In this document: positions 28,297 through 39,128 of the stretch, in pieces
Numbering within the stretch: position 1 is the first letter of the stretch
Layout of the letters: each line of letters starts with the position of its first letter
DNA from: Candidatus Nomurabacteria bacterium
Lineage (GTDB): Bacteria > Patescibacteriota > Minisyncoccia > Phycocordibacterales > UBA9973
Assembly: GCA_016699085.1 (NCBI GenBank)
Contig: CP064958.1
Location: 271,630 to 335,629 of the forward strand
Direction of reading: 5' to 3'
Length of the DNA stretch: 64,000 nt
Translations under genes and position numbers: made by a program
The notes under the pieces: generated by a model
The model's database searches: none
The model's input: the letters and a program-made list of their open reading frames with translations, nothing else
What the model was told of the DNA's origin: nothing

Positions 28297-29706
28297 TTAG
28301 TTGAATTGATAGCTCCAAAGTGATCCATCGATTTTGTTGGTGAAATATATAAATTTTTCAGATGGATCAGTAAACAGTTTTGTCATGTCGATCGGGGATT
28401 GATTGATTGTGCTTGGATCGACAAGGTTGGCAAAGATGTTTGTTGTCAGGTTGATTCTCCAAAGTGAATCATCGAAAGCTACTTTGCCTTGGTACCATGC
28501 ATCGGGATATGTTTCGACTGGTAGAGCCTTAGGTATGCCGCAATATAGAACCTGGCTACCTATTCCCCAGGTACATTTTTCAGGTAATGTCGCTAGTCCA
28601 AGATTTGCTGATACGTGGGTTAATACATCATACGAATAGAGGGAGTAACTGCCTGCAATTGTTGCGCCGTAAATAAGTTTTTTTCCGTCAGGGCTCATGA
28701 GAGTGGTTACTCCAGGAACATTGCCAAGTATTTTTGTCATAGTGCCCGTTGTCGCATTGATAGAATACACATAGCCGCCAAGTATACCTGCTGGTTTTGT
28801 TGTTGCGACAATAGTTGAGCTATTTGCATATTGCATGAGCCACTCAGTAAATGCTGAATTCCAAAATTGTGATTTTTTAATACCTGCAAAATCCGTACTT
28901 ATCCCGAGTAGTCCCCCATCTGTTGGAAATGTATAGAATATTTTTGTGCCGTCACTTGATTTTGTCATTTCAGTAATATTTTCTGGCATAAAAGTGCCTT
29001 CAAGTGTATATGGTGTTGTGGCGAGTGGTACTTCCTTTATTTCAAGTAGCTCTTCTTCATTGGAGAGTGTATCGAGTGGAAGTTGGGCTATGAATGTTGC
29101 CATATAGGTCTTGATTTTGCCTGTCGCGTCATCAAGGTAGCGAAGAATAACAGAGGTGCCCGATGCGTCCCATATTGCCTCATGAATTCTCGGAATTGTT
29201 GTATTAGAAATCCTTTTTGTCTGTAAAGAATCGGTATACGTTTCGTAGGCATGTGCCGTCTTGGTTTCAATGTAGCGGATAGCTGTAGCTGGCACAGTGG
29301 TGATAATTGGAGGTGGAACGATCGACAGTGATCCAGGGATACCACCTGAATCGCCTTCAATTGCTGCTGGTGCGACAGGGGTCACAATGGTGCGTGTTGT
29401 TAGAAATGCAATTGCTCCTGCTACAGGTTCGGTTGTGATATGGCGAAGTTTAGGTAGTAGAGGCTCCTCGCCTATTGGTTGAGGTTCTCCAGGGACACTT
29501 CCTGGTGGCATAACGTCATTTGTTGGGGGTAGTGGCGTAGGGTTGTCATTCGTCTTTTGTCCAAATGGGAAAAGGTTTCGTAGTGTTATTTCGATATTGC
29601 TTGGATTTGGATTAGTGTCTGTTTTTTTTATAAAAAATCCAATAGCAATAAATGCAATGAGCAATATTCCCGTGATTAGTATTACTAATTTGAATTTTTT
29701 ATTCAT
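28297..29706 (-). CDS. Membrane-anchored protein with Pro-rich linker and beta-rich (propeller-like) ectodomain. Last gene of the T4SS-like cluster (VirB8-position)
   Basis: N-terminal TM LVILITGILLIAFIAIGFFI, a Pro-rich segment, then a ~350-aa beta-rich domain. The call is by position and topology only. Confidence 0.45.
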   Translation of the reverse strand: MNKKFKLVILITGILLIAFIAIGFFIKKTDTNPNPSNIEITLRNLFPFGQKTNDNPTPLPPTNDVMPPGSVPGEPQPIGEEPLLPKLRHITTEPVAGAIAFLTTRTIVTPVAPAAIEGDSGGIPGSLSIVPPPIITTVPATAIRYIETKTAHAYETYTDSLQTKRISNTTIPRIHEAIWDASGTSVILRYLDDATGKIKTYMATFIAQLPLDTLSNEEELLEIKEVPLATTPYTLEGTFMPENITEMTKSSDGTKIFYTFPTDGGLLGISTDFAGIKKSQFWNSAFTEWLMQYANSSTIVATTKPAGILGGYVYSINATTGTMTKILGNVPGVTTLMSPDGKKLIYGATIAGSYSLYSYDVLTHVSANLGLATLPEKCTWGIGSQVLYCGIPKALPVETYPDAWYQGKVAFDDSLWRINLTTNIFANLVDPSTINQSPIDMTKLFTDPSEKFIYFTNKIDGSLWSYQFN

Positions 29707-29715
29707 AGATATCTA

Positions 29716-31155
29716 TTAGCCGTTGGTGAGGCAAGATTGGTAAATACCATATGCATTTTGGCCATATGCACTCGGTGATGATGCACTGCACATACTGTTA
29801 CCACCATTGTAGGCTGAGAAAGTTTTTGCATAATCGCTTGTACATCCTGGGAGTCCATTGAAATATTTCCAGATTTTAGCACCTTCAGTCAAATTTTTTG
29901 TCATATCCAACATATCAGCTGGGGTAAAACCATCCCGTGTTGGGTAGGTATTCCTACTTTCCCATGATGGTGGATTCGTTGTGTATGTTCCAGAATCATA
30001 CCCAATTGGGAAAAACGTAACTTGTACGAGACCTATGCCATTACTAAATCTCCAATCAAGGCCGAGTCCAGGTGTGTTGGTAATCTCATTTTTGCTTACA
30101 TCATTTTTTTTATTTGGATCACTTGCACCATTAAAGGTTACTCCTTTGTATGTTTTACCTGAGTTTAGGAAAGCTTTGTTGGATTTTGTGCCTTTTACAT
30201 TTGCATCCATGCCTATTTGTCCCGCTTGCCCGCCTTTAGTTTCTACTTGCAAAAGTGTGTGTAATACACAATATGGAATGCCAGTGTTTGTGGCAACGGT
30301 ATGTGCTGCCGCATCAATAGCACCTGGAAGTGGTACAGCATTGCCAGTAATTGATTGGTAGACGGTATCTGGAATGATAATATCTTCGACGGCAATGCTT
30401 TGGGTACTAATCCCAAGGTGTAAGCGAACTAAGTTAGGATTGATGGTGTTAAGTATAAGAAATGCAGCAAGTGCAAGTAGTAGTCCTCCAATGGCATGTC
30501 CAATCATCCCCTTAGCATCTTCTTTTTTAGTAAATGACTCACTTCCCATGTAGGTAATACCGCCTAAGACTATCATAACTACAGCCAGTACTCCCGCAAA
30601 ACCTATAGTAAACTTAACCACAATATTAAGATAATCCCCTAGGCCTGTTGTAGGAGTGACTTTTACTATGTTTGGCAATGGTGCAAGTAGACAATATTCA
30701 CCAGCTCCCTCATTGCACTTTATTATTTCACCGTTTTGCGTTGGTGCTGCAGGCAAGTTAACATCTGCGTCCTGGCCACTCACTGCTCCTTTCGCAGTGT
30801 CTGGCGTTTTAAACTGCTTTAAGTCACTGACGGGTTCCTGGTTGCTAGCATTATATAATTCAAAGTAATAGGTTGTATTTGGTAGTACCCCATCAATTTT
30901 TCCGGTAAACGTATTGTCGCTCAACGGCGTAATAGTTTGCCCAGTTTTATCAAGTGACGAGGTACTGGTGCCGTACTTCACCTGCATAACTAGATTTTGA
31001 TATTCAAATACTTCCCCATTGAAACTAAAAGAAGTTGGAGTTGCTTCTGTAATGCTGTAGATGATTACTTGCTGGTCTGCATGGAGTAACCCATGAGGCA
31101 TGAGTATTGCAACAATGAGTGAAAAGAAGAATATAATTCGTTGTATTTTTTGCAT
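29716..31155 (-). CDS. Secreted FN3-like domain + VirB2/TrbC-like pilin TM hairpin + C-terminal SLT-like lytic transglycosylase (fusion)
   Basis: Signal peptide, then TTYYFELY (FN3-like). A two-helix hydrophobic hairpin FAGVLAVVMIVLGGITYMGSE...GHAIGGLLLALAAFLILNT follows. The C-terminus has LLQVETKGGQ...GIGLVQV...AYNGG, which resembles the SLT E-S/GLMQ/AYNxG motifs with Thr in place of Ser. Confidence 0.45.
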   Translation of the reverse strand: MQKIQRIIFFFSLIVAILMPHGLLHADQQVIIYSITEATPTSFSFNGEVFEYQNLVMQVKYGTSTSSLDKTGQTITPLSDNTFTGKIDGVLPNTTYYFELYNASNQEPVSDLKQFKTPDTAKGAVSGQDADVNLPAAPTQNGEIIKCNEGAGEYCLLAPLPNIVKVTPTTGLGDYLNIVVKFTIGFAGVLAVVMIVLGGITYMGSESFTKKEDAKGMIGHAIGGLLLALAAFLILNTINPNLVRLHLGISTQSIAVEDIIIPDTVYQSITGNAVPLPGAIDAAAHTVATNTGIPYCVLHTLLQVETKGGQAGQIGMDANVKGTKSNKAFLNSGKTYKGVTFNGASDPNKKNDVSKNEITNTPGLGLDWRFSNGIGLVQVTFFPIGYDSGTYTTNPPSWESRNTYPTRDGFTPADMLDMTKNLTEGAKIWKYFNGLPGCTSDYAKTFSAYNGGNSMCSASSPSAYGQNAYGIYQSCLTNG

Positions 31156-31156
31156 A

Positions 31157-32131
31157 TTATTCTAAATTAACGATTACTGACTTTTCTGCTGATTGAAAGA
31201 GTCGTGAAATACTTGCAATCGATACGGCAATCGATGCGCTTCCTGCAATACCTTCTGGTTTCTTGATGACAAGCCAATTCTTTTTGCTTGGTGTTGCTAT
31301 GTTCTGCTCATTTAATTTCCAGCTGTATTTTAGATCACTGCTTACTGGATCAAGTGGTGAAAAAAAGTATGGCTCTGCAACAATGGTCGCCTCGCTACTT
31401 TCTAGACTAAATATGTTGCCAAGCTCATGGCTGTACAATATCCCTTCGAGCGGATTATAAACATAAAAAAGAATCTGTGGTTTACCGGTTGTAAGTGTGA
31501 TACTCTGTGTTCCTGTTGCTCCGGAGCTTACGTCGGTTGCTTTGACACTTATCTGCTCTTTGGCATTTAGGTAGCTCGTTTGAAACAAAAAGCTATTTTT
31601 GCTATAGCCAGAAAAATCTGGGTATGCGTTAAAATTTCTTTGCCACGCAAATGTCATGCTCGTAGGACTTGCAATAGTGCCAGCTTTTACTTGTGGCATA
31701 GCAACAACTTTGATTACTGACTGGGATGATGGCATTGCTTTGCCTTTATAAAATGGTGGTACATGCGAATCAACGGCTTGCCAAAGAAGATCGATCGAGG
31801 ACGGGACTATCAGAACACTTTTTGTTATTGATGAGCCATCAACTGAAATGATTGCTTCAACGGTGACTGATGTTCCGACACTGTCAGTTTTTACTTGATA
31901 GCTTATTGCTCCCGTTTTATTGAGTCCAATTTTGCCATTTACCTTCCAAGTAATGTCTGCGCGGCTTAAATCAATAGCAAAACTAGTTAATTTTATGGTG
32001 ACAATTTGATCAGGCCCTGGAATTTCTGGTACTGTCGATACACTGACATCGCTTTGTACTAGTTCTGCGTGTGCGACCACAGTTAATCCGAAATATATCG
32101 AAATAATGAGGAGGATAAAAGCTTTTTTCAT
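31157..32131 (-). CDS. Secreted beta-rich protein of T4SS-like cluster
   Basis: Signal peptide MKKAFILLIISIYFGLTVVAHA. No motif recognised. Confidence 0.5.
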   Translation of the reverse strand: MKKAFILLIISIYFGLTVVAHAELVQSDVSVSTVPEIPGPDQIVTIKLTSFAIDLSRADITWKVNGKIGLNKTGAISYQVKTDSVGTSVTVEAIISVDGSSITKSVLIVPSSIDLLWQAVDSHVPPFYKGKAMPSSQSVIKVVAMPQVKAGTIASPTSMTFAWQRNFNAYPDFSGYSKNSFLFQTSYLNAKEQISVKATDVSSGATGTQSITLTTGKPQILFYVYNPLEGILYSHELGNIFSLESSEATIVAEPYFFSPLDPVSSDLKYSWKLNEQNIATPSKKNWLVIKKPEGIAGSASIAVSIASISRLFQSAEKSVIVNLE

Positions 32132-32197: not shown

Positions 32198-34033
32198 TTA
32201 CGCACTATCCTTTTCACTTGCTTCTAGTTCCTTTTTTGCTTTTTGTATGGCAAGGACTTGCGAAGGATCAGAGGTGATAATTTGATCTTCGGTATAGGAA
32301 GCAATCGTCTTAATCGCTACATGTTTGAGTCCTGCAAAGAATATGCCTTCACCGACACCGGATTCGAGGAGAAGATATTTCTCTTCGTCAGTAAGATTAA
32401 AGGTTTTTTGTAGTAAATCGATTGACGATGGGGACTGTTTCAGAAGAAATTGGATTGAAGAGTTCGTCACAATCGGTATACCATAGGGACTTTTCATGAA
32501 GTCTGCAACGTCTTGGGTAATTGTAGCAAGTCCTAGGTAGTACTTACGGCCACGTTTTGCAATCGAGTAGAGAAACGATGCTGTATCTTCTGATTTCATC
32601 ATCCACCAGGCTTCATCAACGACGAGGAGGCGTTTCCTTAAGTTTTTACGAACGGAGTTCCATATATAGTGGGTCACGATGTACATGGCAACAGGTTTAA
32701 GCTCGTCTTCCATGTCACGGACAGAAAAAACGACGAATTTTTTGTTGATATCTACATTTGATGGTTTGTTGATGAATCCTGCCCATGAACCGCGGGTATA
32801 CTTGGTAAGCTTTTGTATGATTGACTCAGTTCCCTCCATACCAGAGAGCACCATTTCAAAATCAGACATGAGCGGTGGCTCAATATTTGAGAAATCAGAA
32901 TTTGGAGTGATATCTTTGATGCCGTACGTTTCAGTAATCGCTCGATCAATAATAGAATCTTCTTCAGGTGTGAGGCCGCCTAGCATGATGCGGAATAGTC
33001 CGACTAAGTTGATCGTATTTGATCTGAGCACATCTGCTGCTGTCTCATCATCGTGTGGAATCGGTAAATCAAAAGGATTGATGTGGTGATCAGATGATAG
33101 TGAAATATTAAAGTATCGTCCTCCGACTGCTTCAGCCAGATATTCATACTCGCGCTCCGGATCAATAACGATTACTTCTGTATCAAACATGAGTGTACGG
33201 ATGATTTCGAGTTTGGTTGCATATGATTTACCTGAACCTGATTTGGCAAAGGTAATGGAGTTGTAGTTTTCGAGAGAGAAACGGTCAAAGATAACCAAGC
33301 TTGAATTGTGGCGGTTGATACCATAGAGAATACCTTTGTCTGAGGTCAAGTCAAAAGAAACAAAGGGGAAAATTGAAGATAGAGGCTCAGAATTAAGCTT
33401 CTGGTGTACATTGAGGAGGTCAGTGCCAATCGGTATAACACTCTTGAATCCTTCTTCTTGCTGGAAAAGTGCTGGTTTCAAATACACGAGCTTAGCATCG
33501 AGTATTGATTTGATTTCATTTTCAATTTTAAAAAGCTCATTTTCATTGTCGGCATACATAGTGAGGTACAGTCCAACATCAAACATTTTCTCCTGTGCTT
33601 GCTGTAGATTATCCCGGAGCGTTTCAATATCGCGATAGGCAGTATCGAGCATTGGGTCGCGCACCAAACCGCGCGATTCGCGCATATTGATCTGGCTCTG
33701 CACTTCTGCAACTTTCTTTTGAAATTGTCGCAAAATTGTCGCAGTATCAATCGGATGAATAAAGATTGAAACATCAAAAATCTTGTCGAGGTTGATAATC
33801 GGCGCAAACCAGTTGTCAGTCAAATACCTTGGATACGAAATCACGAAGAAAGTTCGGGCAATCTTATCTCCTAGATGTAGTGCTTTTGGCTCAACTTGTA
33901 GTGCTGATGGTGCAATAATATCCTGTAGCTCAAGTGTTGCGGCCTCGTATATTTCTTGTGGCAAAACAGGCAACACTTGCTTGTCGCTCCCGCTTCCCTT
34001 TTTTGATTTTCCTAAAAGTCCAAAAAGTGCCAT
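32198..34033 (-). CDS. virB4: VirB4/TrbE/CagE-family type IV secretion ATPase (C-terminal 611-aa portion)
   Basis: Walker A FAKSGSGKSYATK, then IDPEREY, a Walker B LLVVDEAWWMM (the DEAW signature) and GLATITQDVADF. The N-terminus contains the Gram-positive VirB4 NTD segment ARTFFVISYPRYL. Confidence 0.85.
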   Translation of the reverse strand: MALFGLLGKSKKGSGSDKQVLPVLPQEIYEAATLELQDIIAPSALQVEPKALHLGDKIARTFFVISYPRYLTDNWFAPIINLDKIFDVSIFIHPIDTATILRQFQKKVAEVQSQINMRESRGLVRDPMLDTAYRDIETLRDNLQQAQEKMFDVGLYLTMYADNENELFKIENEIKSILDAKLVYLKPALFQQEEGFKSVIPIGTDLLNVHQKLNSEPLSSIFPFVSFDLTSDKGILYGINRHNSSLVIFDRFSLENYNSITFAKSGSGKSYATKLEIIRTLMFDTEVIVIDPEREYEYLAEAVGGRYFNISLSSDHHINPFDLPIPHDDETAADVLRSNTINLVGLFRIMLGGLTPEEDSIIDRAITETYGIKDITPNSDFSNIEPPLMSDFEMVLSGMEGTESIIQKLTKYTRGSWAGFINKPSNVDINKKFVVFSVRDMEDELKPVAMYIVTHYIWNSVRKNLRKRLLVVDEAWWMMKSEDTASFLYSIAKRGRKYYLGLATITQDVADFMKSPYGIPIVTNSSIQFLLKQSPSSIDLLQKTFNLTDEEKYLLLESGVGEGIFFAGLKHVAIKTIASYTEDQIITSDPSQVLAIQKAKKELEASEKDSA

Positions 34034-34036
34034 ATA

Positions 34037-34705
34037 TTATTCTAGTTTAATATTTTGCTCTGTCTCGCCTGGATTAAATATCTTATAAAAAAGTTCAATA
34101 ATCTCTTCGGTTCCAAGTTGGGTGCTTCGAATACCACATCGGTTAAGCCCTTGTTGGATGACAGCAATGCGCTCTTCGAGTTGTGAACGTTTCTCTTCAA
34201 AAGCTGCCAATGCATCTTCTTTTGCTTCTTTTGATGATTTATTAAAGCCGGTGAACATTTGGGTAATGCCGCCAGTATTACCTATCGTAGTTGCTGAATA
34301 CGGGATAACGATAAAGAAGTTCTTTGTCATGATGTTTACCTGCTCAGTAAAGCTTTTGATGAATTCGATGTATTCTTTTGTCTGTACCTTAAGGAGTGGC
34401 TCTAACTGCTCCTTCATTCTGTTTTCAAGAGTTACAAGGTATGGCTGAATATTTAATCGTCGTGATTGGATAATAATCTGAGTTGAAAATTCAATCGAAT
34501 TCAAGAAATTTTGAAATTGCAGAAGAATCGCGTGCTGTTCATCAGCTGACTTGAGTGACAGATTGATTGATGAAGCTATAACAACAGCTCGTAAGCCGCC
34601 ATCTTTAAGTACGATGATGCCGTCGCGAACTTCTTTGATTGGCACAAACCCTTGGGTGGCCTTCGCATTGATTGCCATATGGGACAGTATACCATCCCCG
34701 CGCAT
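34037..34705 (-). CDS. VirB4 N-terminal domain encoded as a separate 222-aa ORF
   Basis: VPIKEVRDGIIVLKDGGLRAVVIASSINLSLKSADEQHAILLQFQNFL matches the N-terminal segment of Gram-positive VirB4/PrgJ-type proteins. The ORF stops 3 nt before the ATG of the 611-aa ORF, which lies in a different frame. Confidence 0.55.
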   Translation of the reverse strand: MRGDGILSHMAINAKATQGFVPIKEVRDGIIVLKDGGLRAVVIASSINLSLKSADEQHAILLQFQNFLNSIEFSTQIIIQSRRLNIQPYLVTLENRMKEQLEPLLKVQTKEYIEFIKSFTEQVNIMTKNFFIVIPYSATTIGNTGGITQMFTGFNKSSKEAKEDALAAFEEKRSQLEERIAVIQQGLNRCGIRSTQLGTEEIIELFYKIFNPGETEQNIKLE

Positions 34706-34713
34706 GGATATTG

Positions 34714-35163
34714 TTATTTTTTGTTGATATCAAGCACATCCAAGCTCCAAGAAATCTCTTTGAGCTTGCTGCCGGAGAGTCTTGGGATAACTGAGGTTGG
34801 CAATTCAGTGTCTTTTTTCTCGACAATTTTCTTTTTCGGTTCACGTTTCCAAATGTAGAGTTTTGACTGGAAAAAATATCGTAAACTATTTTCAAGTACG
34901 AATATAAATGGCTTATTATTCACCTTATAGAACGCAAGGGCGAGTGCTAGTCCGCCTATCGGTGCAATAAAAAGTACAGCAAAGAAAAATGGCAATAGCC
35001 TATACGCAATAAAGCAAAGTCCTGCCCCACCTGCGAGGTAGACGAATTGTCTGAAGGTAAATGGCCCGAATATCTTGTCTTCTATATCAATAAATTGTGG
35101 AACTTGGAATCGCATATAGGTATTATATAGCTTCTCGGTATAAATCTTTTTGTTTATCTGCAC
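34714..35163 (-). CDS. Small 2-TM membrane protein, VirB3/PrgI-like by position and topology
   Basis: IFGPFTFRQFVYLAGGAGLCFIAYRLLPFFFAVLFIAPIGGLALALAF. It lies immediately upstream of VirB4, as prgI/virB3 does. The start may be the internal Met (35115), which would avoid overlap. Confidence 0.4.
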   Translation of the reverse strand: MQINKKIYTEKLYNTYMRFQVPQFIDIEDKIFGPFTFRQFVYLAGGAGLCFIAYRLLPFFFAVLFIAPIGGLALALAFYKVNNKPFIFVLENSLRYFFQSKLYIWKREPKKKIVEKKDTELPTSVIPRLSGSKLKEISWSLDVLDINKK

Positions 35164-36020: not shown

Positions 36021-39000
36021 TTAGCTATTTAGTTTATCATTAGCGTCCCTTGTTTTTTGCTCAACAGTATCTTTTTTAGCAAATACTTCTTTATACATTT
36101 TAATATCTTCCTTTGCCTTCTCTATATTCATGTGGGCCTTAGCAATCTCAATTGGATTTTTTGAAGCTTCAGCTATGGTTAGATTTGCCTGTGCGGTTGC
36201 AAGGTCTTTTTGCCTGTACTCAACTACTTGTTTAATATGACTTTCATCTACTACTGGAGGACGAACACCTGTTTCAAATTCAATATTATCAGCAATGTCT
36301 TTCAAATGATCATTAACTTCTGCCATTTCTCGAGCGGCCTTATCAAGTGTTTGTTGTGCACGTCGTCTCTCTGTAATACTAATTGGTTTCTGTGCGTCCT
36401 TTGTTTCTTCGCCAGCTTGTTTACGCAATGAGGATATCGTTGCTTTCTCAGTTGCATTTAAGTTACGTTTTGAAATTGTTTCAGCTTCTCTCCACTTTTC
36501 TTCACTAAATGCTGCTGTTCGACTTCCAGCTGCTACACCAGCTGCTATTTCTTCGGCAACTTGCTGTTCGTTTGCAGTTCTAGCAGCATTTTTAGCACTG
36601 ACATAGCCTGGTCCATATTCGATAGTATCTGCAGAATCACGCATGCGCTGAGCATTAACTTCTGCGGCTGATTGTACTTTTGCGCCACCACCATTTCCGT
36701 TGTGGGTAATATTGCCATCTTTGTCATAAATAGTTGCCATCTGTTTTTCATATAATTTTTTGAAATCTGCTTCCTTAAATTTATCACCCAGTGCAGCTCG
36801 AGCATTTTCTTTGTCTGTCTCATATCTTTCTTGCCAATCTTTTGCTTTTTTATTTTGCTGGTCAGCTTCATACCCTGACATCTTGTAAGTTTCTGCTTCT
36901 TTCATGCGAGCGTCCTTCTTGCGTTCAGTAGCACCTTTTGCTCCACCTTCAGTAGATAGATCAATTCTGCCAGTGCCAAGTGTTAAATTAGCTGCGCCCT
37001 GAGCAAATCCGCCAAGGCCAGATGAAGCTTTGGTATCCCAGCCAGTTTGTTTCGCAAAACCTTCGCCAGCTTTTGTCTTTCTGAAATCAAAACTACTTGC
37101 TGCCATTGAATTTGAAATTGTAAGTTGTCGTTGTGCCCACTTATCCCCTTCAGCCGCACGTCGTTGTAGATCAGGATCTTTTGCCCTTGCGGCTGCGACT
37201 GCTCCGAGTGTTGATCGTAGTCCAAGTGCTGCTCCACCTGTTGCAACGCCAACCGCGGCGCCGCCAACTTTGTTCATAACTGCAAGCGATGCTGCCCCAA
37301 TGTCACCAGAAAGTTTGACTGCCATATCAACCGCTGTTTTTATCAAGAAATATATAATCGCAAACGGTATGATGAGGCCGATAAGTCCTTGGATATTACT
37401 TTCGAGACTGCCGCCAGTTGGACTGTTACTTGCTGCGATTGGTAGTAGCTTAAGATCAGTCGCCATAATGATGATATAAAGGAAAAAGAGGAATATTGGT
37501 GCCATAAATGCCTGAGATACTAGTTCGTGCCACCAGTTTGTCCAACCAATTTTCATCCAACCTTTCATCGACGGCACGATCCATGATACGAACGCAAACG
37601 GAGATAGTATCATTGAAACCATCAGCCCTATGACACGGCCGAGAAACAGTACAGCAACCTTGAGAAACATGAGGAACATAAATATATTGATTGCAATAGC
37701 AATGAGTAGCACAAAGAAGAACCAGCCAGTGTTTGCGTTTGCGTCGATATCGCTTGTTTTGAATATTTTCTGTGGATTAAATTTAGAAACAAGTCCAAGG
37801 GTTATACTCTTCTCGCCACCCACTGAAGAGCTTTGTCCGGTCACATTTACTGAGTCGTACATGATCCGAGCGAGGATATTTGACGTGTCGATAATAATTT
37901 TGGTAAAAAATAAGCTGAAGTTGATAAGGAGCGCCACAACGACGAGCGAGGCGATCATTTTCTTGGCATCGACACCACTGATTCGTAGAATAGTGCCGAT
38001 AGCAATATAGAGCAGTACGAATATGAAAAGAATATTTGAAATATCACGAACAATGCGCCAGCCTTGAGGTACGAATTCTGTAGCGGTGTAACTTGAGCTT
38101 TGTAGGGAGAAATGTAAGAACCAATCAAGGAATCCAGCAGCAAGTCTCGCAAGTGCAGCTGTTGGAATGTATAAGACGTAATACACCAGCTGAGTAAAAC
38201 ACCCGAGCATGTTGATTGCTGCCCTGCCTGATGTCAGACTGAAATCTAGACAGTATGGCAAATTACCAGGATTGCCTGTGTCCGTTGAGCCTTCGACTAT
38301 GTTTTGGCCCCCTGTTGGACTTGTTGTTACCTCAGGAGAGCCAGCTGGCAGAGTTTTGAAGGGCGCAATTTTTTCCTCATCATCACTAAGGGCGCTCAAG
38401 GTGTCATTACTAAGCTCACCAATACAATTACGAATTAGCGGGATAACTGAACAAGTCTCCTCAAGTCTCCCTTGACTTACATATTGGGTATCTGGCTTTA
38501 AACCCGTAACAGTAATGTTGATTGTTTGAGTGCCAAGAAAAATGTCTGGAATAACGACAATGCTCTGTCCAATATTTTGATCGAAAGTAATTCCTGGAAT
38601 GGGCTTTCCTGCACGGTCTAGAATTTTACCATTGATAACTTCTTCGTCGGAGAGGGTCGCTGCTTCCTTTTTGGCCATAGTACCCAGATTGTCCTCATTT
38701 GTAGCAATATCTAAATAGACACCGCAGCCATACCCATTACATTCGAGTGGATCATAGGATCCTAGTGCCCCACCATTGCCTGGGATTTCTTCATTGCCTT
38801 GAGACGAATTGGATTGTCCAGAAAGTACTTCGTAAATAGGATTACCGTCTTGCCCTTCGATGTATGTCCATCCAGTAATTCCATTGGTGCTTCCATTAGG
38901 AGGAATTCTTCCTTTATAAATATCATGACCAATATTGCCGTCATTACCGCCATTAACTTGTAACTGGAATTGAAGTACAGCTGTTGTTGCTCCGACGCTT

Positions 39001-39128
39001 ATCACCTTAACTTCAGGTATATTAAAATTATCATCCAAATAAGCTTCGGCTTTTTGCGGAGTAAATATTGGCAAAAAGCTTCCTGATAGGATAGTGATGA
39101 AGAGCACATAGAGCAGGAATTTTTTCAT
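36021..39128 (-). CDS. Giant polytopic membrane protein, VirB6/TrbL-like core, with ~350-aa ectodomain and ~450-aa charged coiled-coil cytoplasmic tail
   Basis: Signal peptide, large N-terminal ectodomain, at least 7 hydrophobic helices (residues ~330-620), then a K/E/A/Q-rich low-complexity C-terminus. Confidence 0.5.
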   Translation of the reverse strand: MKKFLLYVLFITILSGSFLPIFTPQKAEAYLDDNFNIPEVKVISVGATTAVLQFQLQVNGGNDGNIGHDIYKGRIPPNGSTNGITGWTYIEGQDGNPIYEVLSGQSNSSQGNEEIPGNGGALGSYDPLECNGYGCGVYLDIATNEDNLGTMAKKEAATLSDEEVINGKILDRAGKPIPGITFDQNIGQSIVVIPDIFLGTQTINITVTGLKPDTQYVSQGRLEETCSVIPLIRNCIGELSNDTLSALSDDEEKIAPFKTLPAGSPEVTTSPTGGQNIVEGSTDTGNPGNLPYCLDFSLTSGRAAINMLGCFTQLVYYVLYIPTAALARLAAGFLDWFLHFSLQSSSYTATEFVPQGWRIVRDISNILFIFVLLYIAIGTILRISGVDAKKMIASLVVVALLINFSLFFTKIIIDTSNILARIMYDSVNVTGQSSSVGGEKSITLGLVSKFNPQKIFKTSDIDANANTGWFFFVLLIAIAINIFMFLMFLKVAVLFLGRVIGLMVSMILSPFAFVSWIVPSMKGWMKIGWTNWWHELVSQAFMAPIFLFFLYIIIMATDLKLLPIAASNSPTGGSLESNIQGLIGLIIPFAIIYFLIKTAVDMAVKLSGDIGAASLAVMNKVGGAAVGVATGGAALGLRSTLGAVAAARAKDPDLQRRAAEGDKWAQRQLTISNSMAASSFDFRKTKAGEGFAKQTGWDTKASSGLGGFAQGAANLTLGTGRIDLSTEGGAKGATERKKDARMKEAETYKMSGYEADQQNKKAKDWQERYETDKENARAALGDKFKEADFKKLYEKQMATIYDKDGNITHNGNGGGAKVQSAAEVNAQRMRDSADTIEYGPGYVSAKNAARTANEQQVAEEIAAGVAAGSRTAAFSEEKWREAETISKRNLNATEKATISSLRKQAGEETKDAQKPISITERRRAQQTLDKAAREMAEVNDHLKDIADNIEFETGVRPPVVDESHIKQVVEYRQKDLATAQANLTIAEASKNPIEIAKAHMNIEKAKEDIKMYKEVFAKKDTVEQKTRDANDKLNS

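What the first reader, a model, noticed from the sequence alone, without database searches (positions are those of the whole stretch)
29716..31155. Unusual fusion of FN3-like ectodomain, VirB2/TrbC-like pilin hairpin and SLT-like transglycosylase
In one 479-aa protein, a signal peptide and FN3-like domain are followed by a two-helix hydrophobic hairpin (FAGVLAVVMIVLGGITYMGSESFTKKEDAKGMIGHAIGGLLLALAAFLILNT) typical of T4SS pilins. A C-terminal domain then carries LLQVETKGG...GLVQV...AYNGG. This is reminiscent of family-1 lytic transglycosylases, but the catalytic dipeptide is E-T rather than E-S. Pilin and hydrolase are normally separate proteins.
Basis: partly seen in the sequence, partly recalled or inferred. 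Interest (0 to 1): 0.5.

Follow-up and report, generated by a model that had tools for sequence, protein, structure and literature searches.

The report
Pilin-anchored cell-wall cutter of CPR T4SS
This gene from an ultrasmall (CPR/Patescibacteria) bacterium joins a pilin-like membrane hairpin of a type IV secretion system to a cell-wall-cutting enzyme, and in hundreds of related genomes the same gene slot carries the same hairpin with a different cell-wall enzyme.

Summary

The gene sits two genes downstream of virB4 in a chromosomal, oriC-proximal, Gram-positive-type T4SS operon (PrgI, TrsD-like, VirB4).

The fusion is the rule in this lineage, not an oddity. At least 502 relatives occur in Patescibacteria representative genomes. 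In 86 of 91 sampled proteins the pilin core is followed by at least 140 aa. virB4 lies within 2.6 kb upstream in 68 of 76 loci. The C-terminal enzyme is swapped between species (SLT, SLT_2/3, VanY, M15, YkuD, NlpC/P60, amidases). Tandem pairs combine a glycan cutter with a peptide-acting enzyme. Rare species have an enzyme-less pilin in the same slot.

Most likely it is the VirB2-like T4SS component carrying the VirB1-like wall-opening function. I did not find this described in the literature available here. It is a new variant of known kinds.

The parts
29716..31155 (-). Whole ORF, 479 aa (stop codon at 29716-18): pilin-anchored lytic transglycosylase
   Evidence: 96%-identical ortholog P0001/L006
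31078..31155 (-). Residues 1-26, predicted signal peptide (MQKIQRIIFFFSLIVAILMPHGLLHA)
   Evidence: First hydrophobic segment; helix 2-18 in the AF2 model. The cleavage site is inferred, not tested.
30805..31071 (-). Residues 29-117, FN3-like beta-sandwich ectodomain
   Evidence: AF2 strands 30-116 with pLDDT about 80-90. Foldseek PDB top 50 are nearly all FN3 domains or FN3-derived binders, E 1e-4 to 2e-3. Pfam Pur_ac_phosph_N E 4.7e-4, below cutoff. This part is optional in relatives.
30406..30717 (-). Residues 147-250, pilin-type core: C147/C155 pair, Y-x-LLAPLP motif, helix 171-204, loop with conserved K211, helix 208-238, LNTINPxL motif
   Evidence: Core HMM from 118 homologs hits only this ORF in the window, E 4.7e-43. 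30/30 relatives' cores hit PF18895 and 23/30 hit TrbC/VirB2 PF04956. The query core scores PF18895 E 1.3e-4, 22.4 bits against a 26.6 cutoff. Conserved positions.
29719..30384 (-). Residues 258-479, divergent family-1 lytic transglycosylase (GH23/SLT-like) domain with a ~70-aa insertion between motif I (E305-T) and GLVQ (375-378); AYNGG 449-453; four invariant Cys (296, 438, 456, 475); invariant DWRFS 367-371
30241..30243 (-). Codon of Glu305, predicted catalytic acid
   Evidence: Invariant in 39/39 relatives; aligns with the ES of Slt70
31157..32131 (-). 324-aa secreted protein of unknown function, the conserved gene between virB4 and the fusion gene
   Evidence: A homolog is present in almost all of 85 loci. 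N-terminal hydrophobic segment. No Pfam, PDB or NCBIfam hit. 1-nt gap to the fusion gene.
28297..29706 (-). 469-aa N-terminally anchored protein (weak PD40/TolB-like propeller signals), conserved gene immediately downstream
   Evidence: A homolog is present in almost all loci whatever the enzyme type. Weak PD40 and TolB hits only. 9-nt gap.
32198..34033 (-). VirB4-type ATPase (611 aa)
   Evidence: PF19044 P-loop_TraG 2.3e-24
34037..34705 (-). TrsD-like / VirB4-N-terminal-like protein (222 aa)
   Evidence: NCBIfam TrsD 3.8e-7 and VirB4_plasma 4.1e-13, both below cutoffs. Positional equivalents carry PF26593 TraC-like.
34714..35163 (-). PrgI (VirB3-like) protein
   Evidence: PF12666 2e-10
36021..39128 (-). 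1035-aa polytopic membrane protein, VirB6-like candidate
   Evidence: Signal peptide plus hydrophobic blocks at 358-604. The positional equivalent in L005 carries TrbL_3. No Pfam hit itself.

Best explanation
The protein is the VirB2-like (pilin-type) component of the chromosomal, origin-proximal, Gram-positive-type T4SS of a Paceibacteria-type CPR bacterium. Its extracellular C-terminus carries a peptidoglycan enzyme, here a divergent family-1 lytic transglycosylase. Proposed working: the signal peptide is cleaved. The two long hydrophobic helices sit as a hairpin in the cytoplasmic membrane with the short K-containing loop on the cytoplasmic side. Both the FN3-like domain and the transglycosylase are then outside, tethered by flexible linkers. 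The hairpin places the enzyme at the T4SS, so Glu305-dependent cleavage of glycan strands opens the wall exactly where the machine or filament must pass. One polypeptide thus combines a VirB2-like and a VirB1-like role. Shown: ORF, domain folds, conserved catalytic motifs, operon position, and enzyme-domain swapping across species. Inferred: topology, catalytic activity, docking of the hairpin to the T4SS, and whether the wall attacked is the cell's own, the host's, or both.
For: Fold and motifs of the enzyme. Hairpin family: 30/30 relatives PF18895 and 23/30 TrbC; weak hit to the Mycoplasma ICE pilin-like protein NF045849. Two TM helices between two extracytoplasmic-type domains. Operon: PrgI, TrsD-like, VirB4, 324-aa gene, this gene, 469-aa gene, with gaps of 1-9 nt. 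The same order occurs in L001-L005. virB4 lies <2.6 kb upstream on the same strand in 68/76 loci and <4.5 kb in 73/76. Same slot, different enzymes: VanY 14, NlpC/P60 9, SLT 7, YkuD 5, SLT_2 3, SLT_3 3, Amidase_5 3, Amidase_2 2, M15 1 of 84, plus 18 loci with the query's own SLT subtype. The N-terminal 258 residues are about 44% identical to proteins whose C-domain is VanY or YkuD instead. Tandem pairs combine SLT with YkuD, NlpC/P60 or VanY. This matches the SLT+CHAP logic of the monoderm VirB1-like hydrolases TraG(pIP501)/PrgK described in PMC12102498. The downstream gene is conserved whatever the enzyme, so it is not a co-varying immunity gene; this fits action at the producer's own envelope. 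In S. epibionticum the genes right after virB4 are also wall enzymes and are essential.
Against: No experiment exists. The query's own hairpin is below Pfam cutoffs. A profile search against solved pilins is not significant (VirB2 8exh E 2.6). hhalign against VirB2 gives 7% probability. TM hairpins can look alike by composition alone. YkuD (a transpeptidase fold) and VanY (a carboxypeptidase) are not classical hole-punching enzymes. Enzyme-less pilins occupy the same slot in a few species (L081, L041; P0119-P0123), so the enzyme is not indispensable. The loop has no net positive charge (3 K, 3 D/E), so the topology rests mainly on the even number of TM helices between exported domains.
Confidence: 0.6

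Rival explanations
1. Enzyme-armed pilus or tip. The hairpin polymerises like VirB2 into a T4SS filament, or caps it. The FN3 and enzyme domains are then displayed on the filament surface and attack the HOST cell wall during epibiotic attachment. Enzyme cassettes are swapped to match host wall chemistry.
For: This is the only pilin-type gene detected in the 64-kb window. The same operon slot holds a plain small pilin in some species, so the fusion is the positional ortholog of the pilin itself. From my own knowledge of F- and T-pilus structures, both termini of VirB2-type pilins face the pilus exterior, so appended domains would point outward. Conserved N-terminal part plus variable C-terminal enzyme resembles polymorphic effectors. 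CPR lytic transglycosylases have been proposed to compromise host envelopes (PMC11665869). The CPR T4SS and its pilins are essential for epibiotic growth (PMC10633639).
Against: No CPR T4SS pilus has been observed in the papers read. A homopolymer would have to accommodate about 35 kDa of extra domains per subunit. No co-varying immunity gene is present. Standalone pilins elsewhere in the genome were not excluded. VirB2 homology is weak.
Confidence: 0.2
2. Pro-protein. The polypeptide is cut at the strongly conserved motifs flanking the hairpin (Y-x-LLAPLP and LNTINPxL). This would release a small mature pilin plus free FN3 and enzyme domains, analogous to the N- and C-terminal processing of TrbC/VirB2.
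For: The two flanking motifs are nearly invariant (T237, N236, N239, P240, L157), more than a linker needs. The linkers on both sides have low predicted confidence (123-145 and 242-256). From my own knowledge, TrbC and VirB2 undergo leader and C-terminal processing. Enzyme-less relatives still carry 25-60-aa S/T/P-rich tails after LNTINP.
Against: No TraF-like or other dedicated peptidase was seen in the operon. The motifs are equally conserved in enzyme-less forms, so they may simply be structural caps of the hairpin. There is no direct evidence of cleavage.
Confidence: 0.12
3. Housekeeping membrane-anchored lytic transglycosylase for growth or division. Under this reading the two-TM anchor only looks like a pilin and the position next to virB4 has no functional meaning.
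For: The query's hairpin hits are sub-threshold. The window is otherwise housekeeping. The T4SS cluster lies near dnaA among core genes.
Against: The position two genes after virB4 is conserved in 68/76 loci across many CPR lineages. 30/30 relatives' hairpins hit PF18895. Exchange of the enzyme for unrelated wall enzymes while the hairpin and neighbours stay fixed is not expected for a dedicated housekeeping enzyme.
Confidence: 0.05

Closest known systems
VirB1-type T4SS wall hydrolases of monoderm systems (TraG of pIP501, PrgK of pCF10, CwlT of ICEBs1)
   Same: A membrane-anchored peptidoglycan enzyme encoded inside a Gram-positive-type (MPF-FATA-like) T4SS operon. An SLT-type glycan cutter is present. 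Across tandem pairs, a glycan cutter is combined with a peptide-acting enzyme, like SLT+CHAP (PMC12102498).
   Different: The anchor is a signal peptide plus a pilin-type two-helix hairpin instead of a single N-terminal TM helix. There is one enzyme domain per polypeptide. An FN3-like domain sits at the N-terminus. The enzyme type is exchanged between species. The SLT domain has a ~70-aa insertion and escapes the Pfam SLT model.
VirB2/TrbC/TraA conjugative pilins and the CPR 'T4SS_pilin' family PF18895 (e.g. SEML1_0014-0019 of Southlakia epibionticum)
   Same: A signal peptide and two long hydrophobic helices joined by a short loop with a conserved Lys, encoded next to virB4. Relatives hit PF18895 and TrbC. 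Small enzyme-less relatives with the same motifs exist.
   Different: The protein is 479 aa rather than about 100-180 aa and has folded domains on both sides of the hairpin. It occurs as a single copy two genes after virB4 rather than in a pilin array. Similarity to solved VirB2 is not significant. Polymerisation is unknown.
Family-1 lytic transglycosylases / GH23 (E. coli Slt70, MltC, MltE; P. aeruginosa Slt, MltF; T3SS EtgA)
   Different: There is a ~70-residue insertion between motif I and GLxQ that carries an invariant DWRFS. There are four invariant cysteines. Some relatives have lost the Q of GLxQ (GLFGV). The query is not detected by Pfam SLT.
SEML1_0007 / SEML1_0006 of Southlakia epibionticum (wall enzymes encoded right after virB4, essential for epibiotic growth)
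   Same: They occupy the same relative position downstream of virB4 in a CPR T4SS operon and carry wall-enzyme folds (DD-peptidase; lysozyme-like x2 + Cys proteinase).
   Different: They are much larger proteins (1113 and 643 aa). No pilin domain is annotated in them, and the pilins are separate small genes in that organism. Whether they are homologous to the window protein was not tested.
'Evolved' secretion-system structural proteins carrying enzymes (e.g. T6SS VgrG-3 with a peptidoglycan-hydrolase C-domain) - analogy only
   Same: A structural or delivery module is covalently extended by a swappable wall-degrading domain (own knowledge; pattern seen here).
   Different: It belongs to a different secretion system with unrelated folds. 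Such effectors have cognate immunity genes, and none co-varies with the enzyme here.

Membership tests
Family-1 lytic transglycosylase (GH23, Pfam SLT PF01464) | Lysozyme-like alpha-helical fold | tested here: met
Family-1 lytic transglycosylase (GH23, Pfam SLT PF01464) | Catalytic Glu in motif I (E-S) at the end of a helix | tested here: met
   E305 is invariant in 39/39 relatives. The next residue is S in 34, T in 4 and N in 1; the query has T. E305 aligns with the ES of Slt70 (E478-S by my own numbering).
Family-1 lytic transglycosylase (GH23, Pfam SLT PF01464) | Motifs G-L-M-Q and A-Y-N-x-G | tested here: met
   GLVQ at 375-378 with G375 invariant; AYNGG at 449-453 with G452 invariant. Some relatives have GLFGV instead.
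Family-1 lytic transglycosylase (GH23, Pfam SLT PF01464) | Scores above the Pfam SLT gathering threshold | tested here: not met
   The query gives no SLT hit at E<=1 as full length or at E<=0.01 as C-domain. 16/25 relatives do hit (best 1.7e-13), so membership is by transitive homology plus fold.
Family-1 lytic transglycosylase (GH23, Pfam SLT PF01464) | Non-hydrolytic cleavage giving 1,6-anhydroMurNAc products | not testable with these tools
   Needs enzyme assays.
VirB2/TrbC-type T4SS pilin (PF04956, PF18895) | Signal peptide followed by two hydrophobic helices joined by a short polar loop | tested here: met
   Hydrophobic segments at 1-26, 175-207 and 215-243. AF2 helices 171-204 and 208-238. 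Loop Lys211 is conserved in >=90% of relatives.
VirB2/TrbC-type T4SS pilin (PF04956, PF18895) | Scores above the Pfam gathering threshold / significant similarity to a solved pilin | tested here: inconclusive
   Query: PF18895 17.4 bits (full length) and 22.4 bits (core) against a 26.6 cutoff; TrbC E 0.0075. Relatives: 30/30 PF18895 (best 4.3e-10) and 23/30 TrbC (best 1.5e-5). Profile vs PDB: VirB2 E 2.6. hhalign vs VirB2: probability 7%.
VirB2/TrbC-type T4SS pilin (PF04956, PF18895) | Small protein (mature form roughly 70-130 aa) consisting essentially of the hairpin | tested here: not met
   The protein is 479 aa with folded domains before and after the hairpin. 86/91 sampled relatives have >=140 aa after the core.
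VirB2/TrbC-type T4SS pilin (PF04956, PF18895) | Encoded in a T4SS cluster near virB4 | tested here: met
   The gene is two genes downstream of virB4 here and within 2.6 kb in 68/76 loci.
VirB2/TrbC-type T4SS pilin (PF04956, PF18895) | Polymerises into an extracellular filament | not testable with these tools
   Needs microscopy or biochemistry.
VirB1-like T4SS-associated wall hydrolase (functional class) | Peptidoglycan-degrading domain encoded within the T4SS operon | tested here: met
   SLT-fold domain in a tight operon with VirB4, PrgI and TrsD-like genes.
VirB1-like T4SS-associated wall hydrolase (functional class) | Required for T4SS assembly or function | not testable with these tools
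   Genetics needed. The only related data are that wall enzymes downstream of virB4 are essential in S. epibionticum.
Polymorphic toxin / effector with immunity | Variable C-terminal toxin domain paired with a co-varying downstream immunity gene | tested here: not met
   The C-domain is variable. The downstream 469-aa gene is homologous in almost all loci whatever the enzyme.

The most novel reading that the evidence does not exclude
The fused protein is itself the subunit (or tip/base subunit) of a T4SS filament in Paceibacteria-type CPR bacteria. The filament would then be coated with cell-wall-cutting enzymes and FN3-type binding domains and would serve as an enzymatic drill into the host's wall. 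The enzyme cassette would be exchanged over evolution to match host wall chemistry. This would give the essential but functionally unexplained CPR T4SS a concrete job.
Probability: 0.15. Interest if true: 0.85.

Novelty: new variant of a known kind. Interest (0 to 1): 0.6.

Why it matters
The T4SS of Patescibacteria is essential for epibiotic growth in the one species tested, yet its role is described as completely unknown (PMC10633639; PMC11665869). The 2025 phylum-wide survey listed the gene two positions after virB4 simply as 'VirB2'. It found few VirB1 homologues and concluded that pilus biogenesis apparently needs no VirB1 (PMC12102498). The data here suggest a different reading for the Paceibacteria-type clusters: the VirB2-like protein itself carries the wall enzyme, as a cassette that is exchanged among at least nine Pfam families. 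That resolves the apparent absence of VirB1. It defines a large family (at least 502 genomes) of pilin-anchored wall enzymes. It also makes the question testable with one protein: is the enzyme active, on whose wall, and is it part of a filament?

Tried and rejected
1. A single-sequence search of the whole protein against PDB sequences gave only non-significant FN3 and TCR hits.

2. Foldseek of the full-length model was dominated by FN3 hits and hid the C-domain. I therefore modelled the C-domain alone.

5. The immunity-gene idea was rejected because the downstream gene does not co-vary with the enzyme type.

6. An assembly or frameshift artefact was rejected because the fused architecture recurs in 86/91 proteins from about 85 loci.

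7. The core-only database search returned only 44 candidates and 5 hits. It is therefore no census, but it did reveal enzyme-less relatives.

8. PDB and NCBIfam searches of the two conserved flanking genes gave nothing usable.

9. Literature searches for pilin-hydrolase fusions in CPR found no description. The library covers only open-access papers and bioRxiv, so absence there is not proof of novelty.
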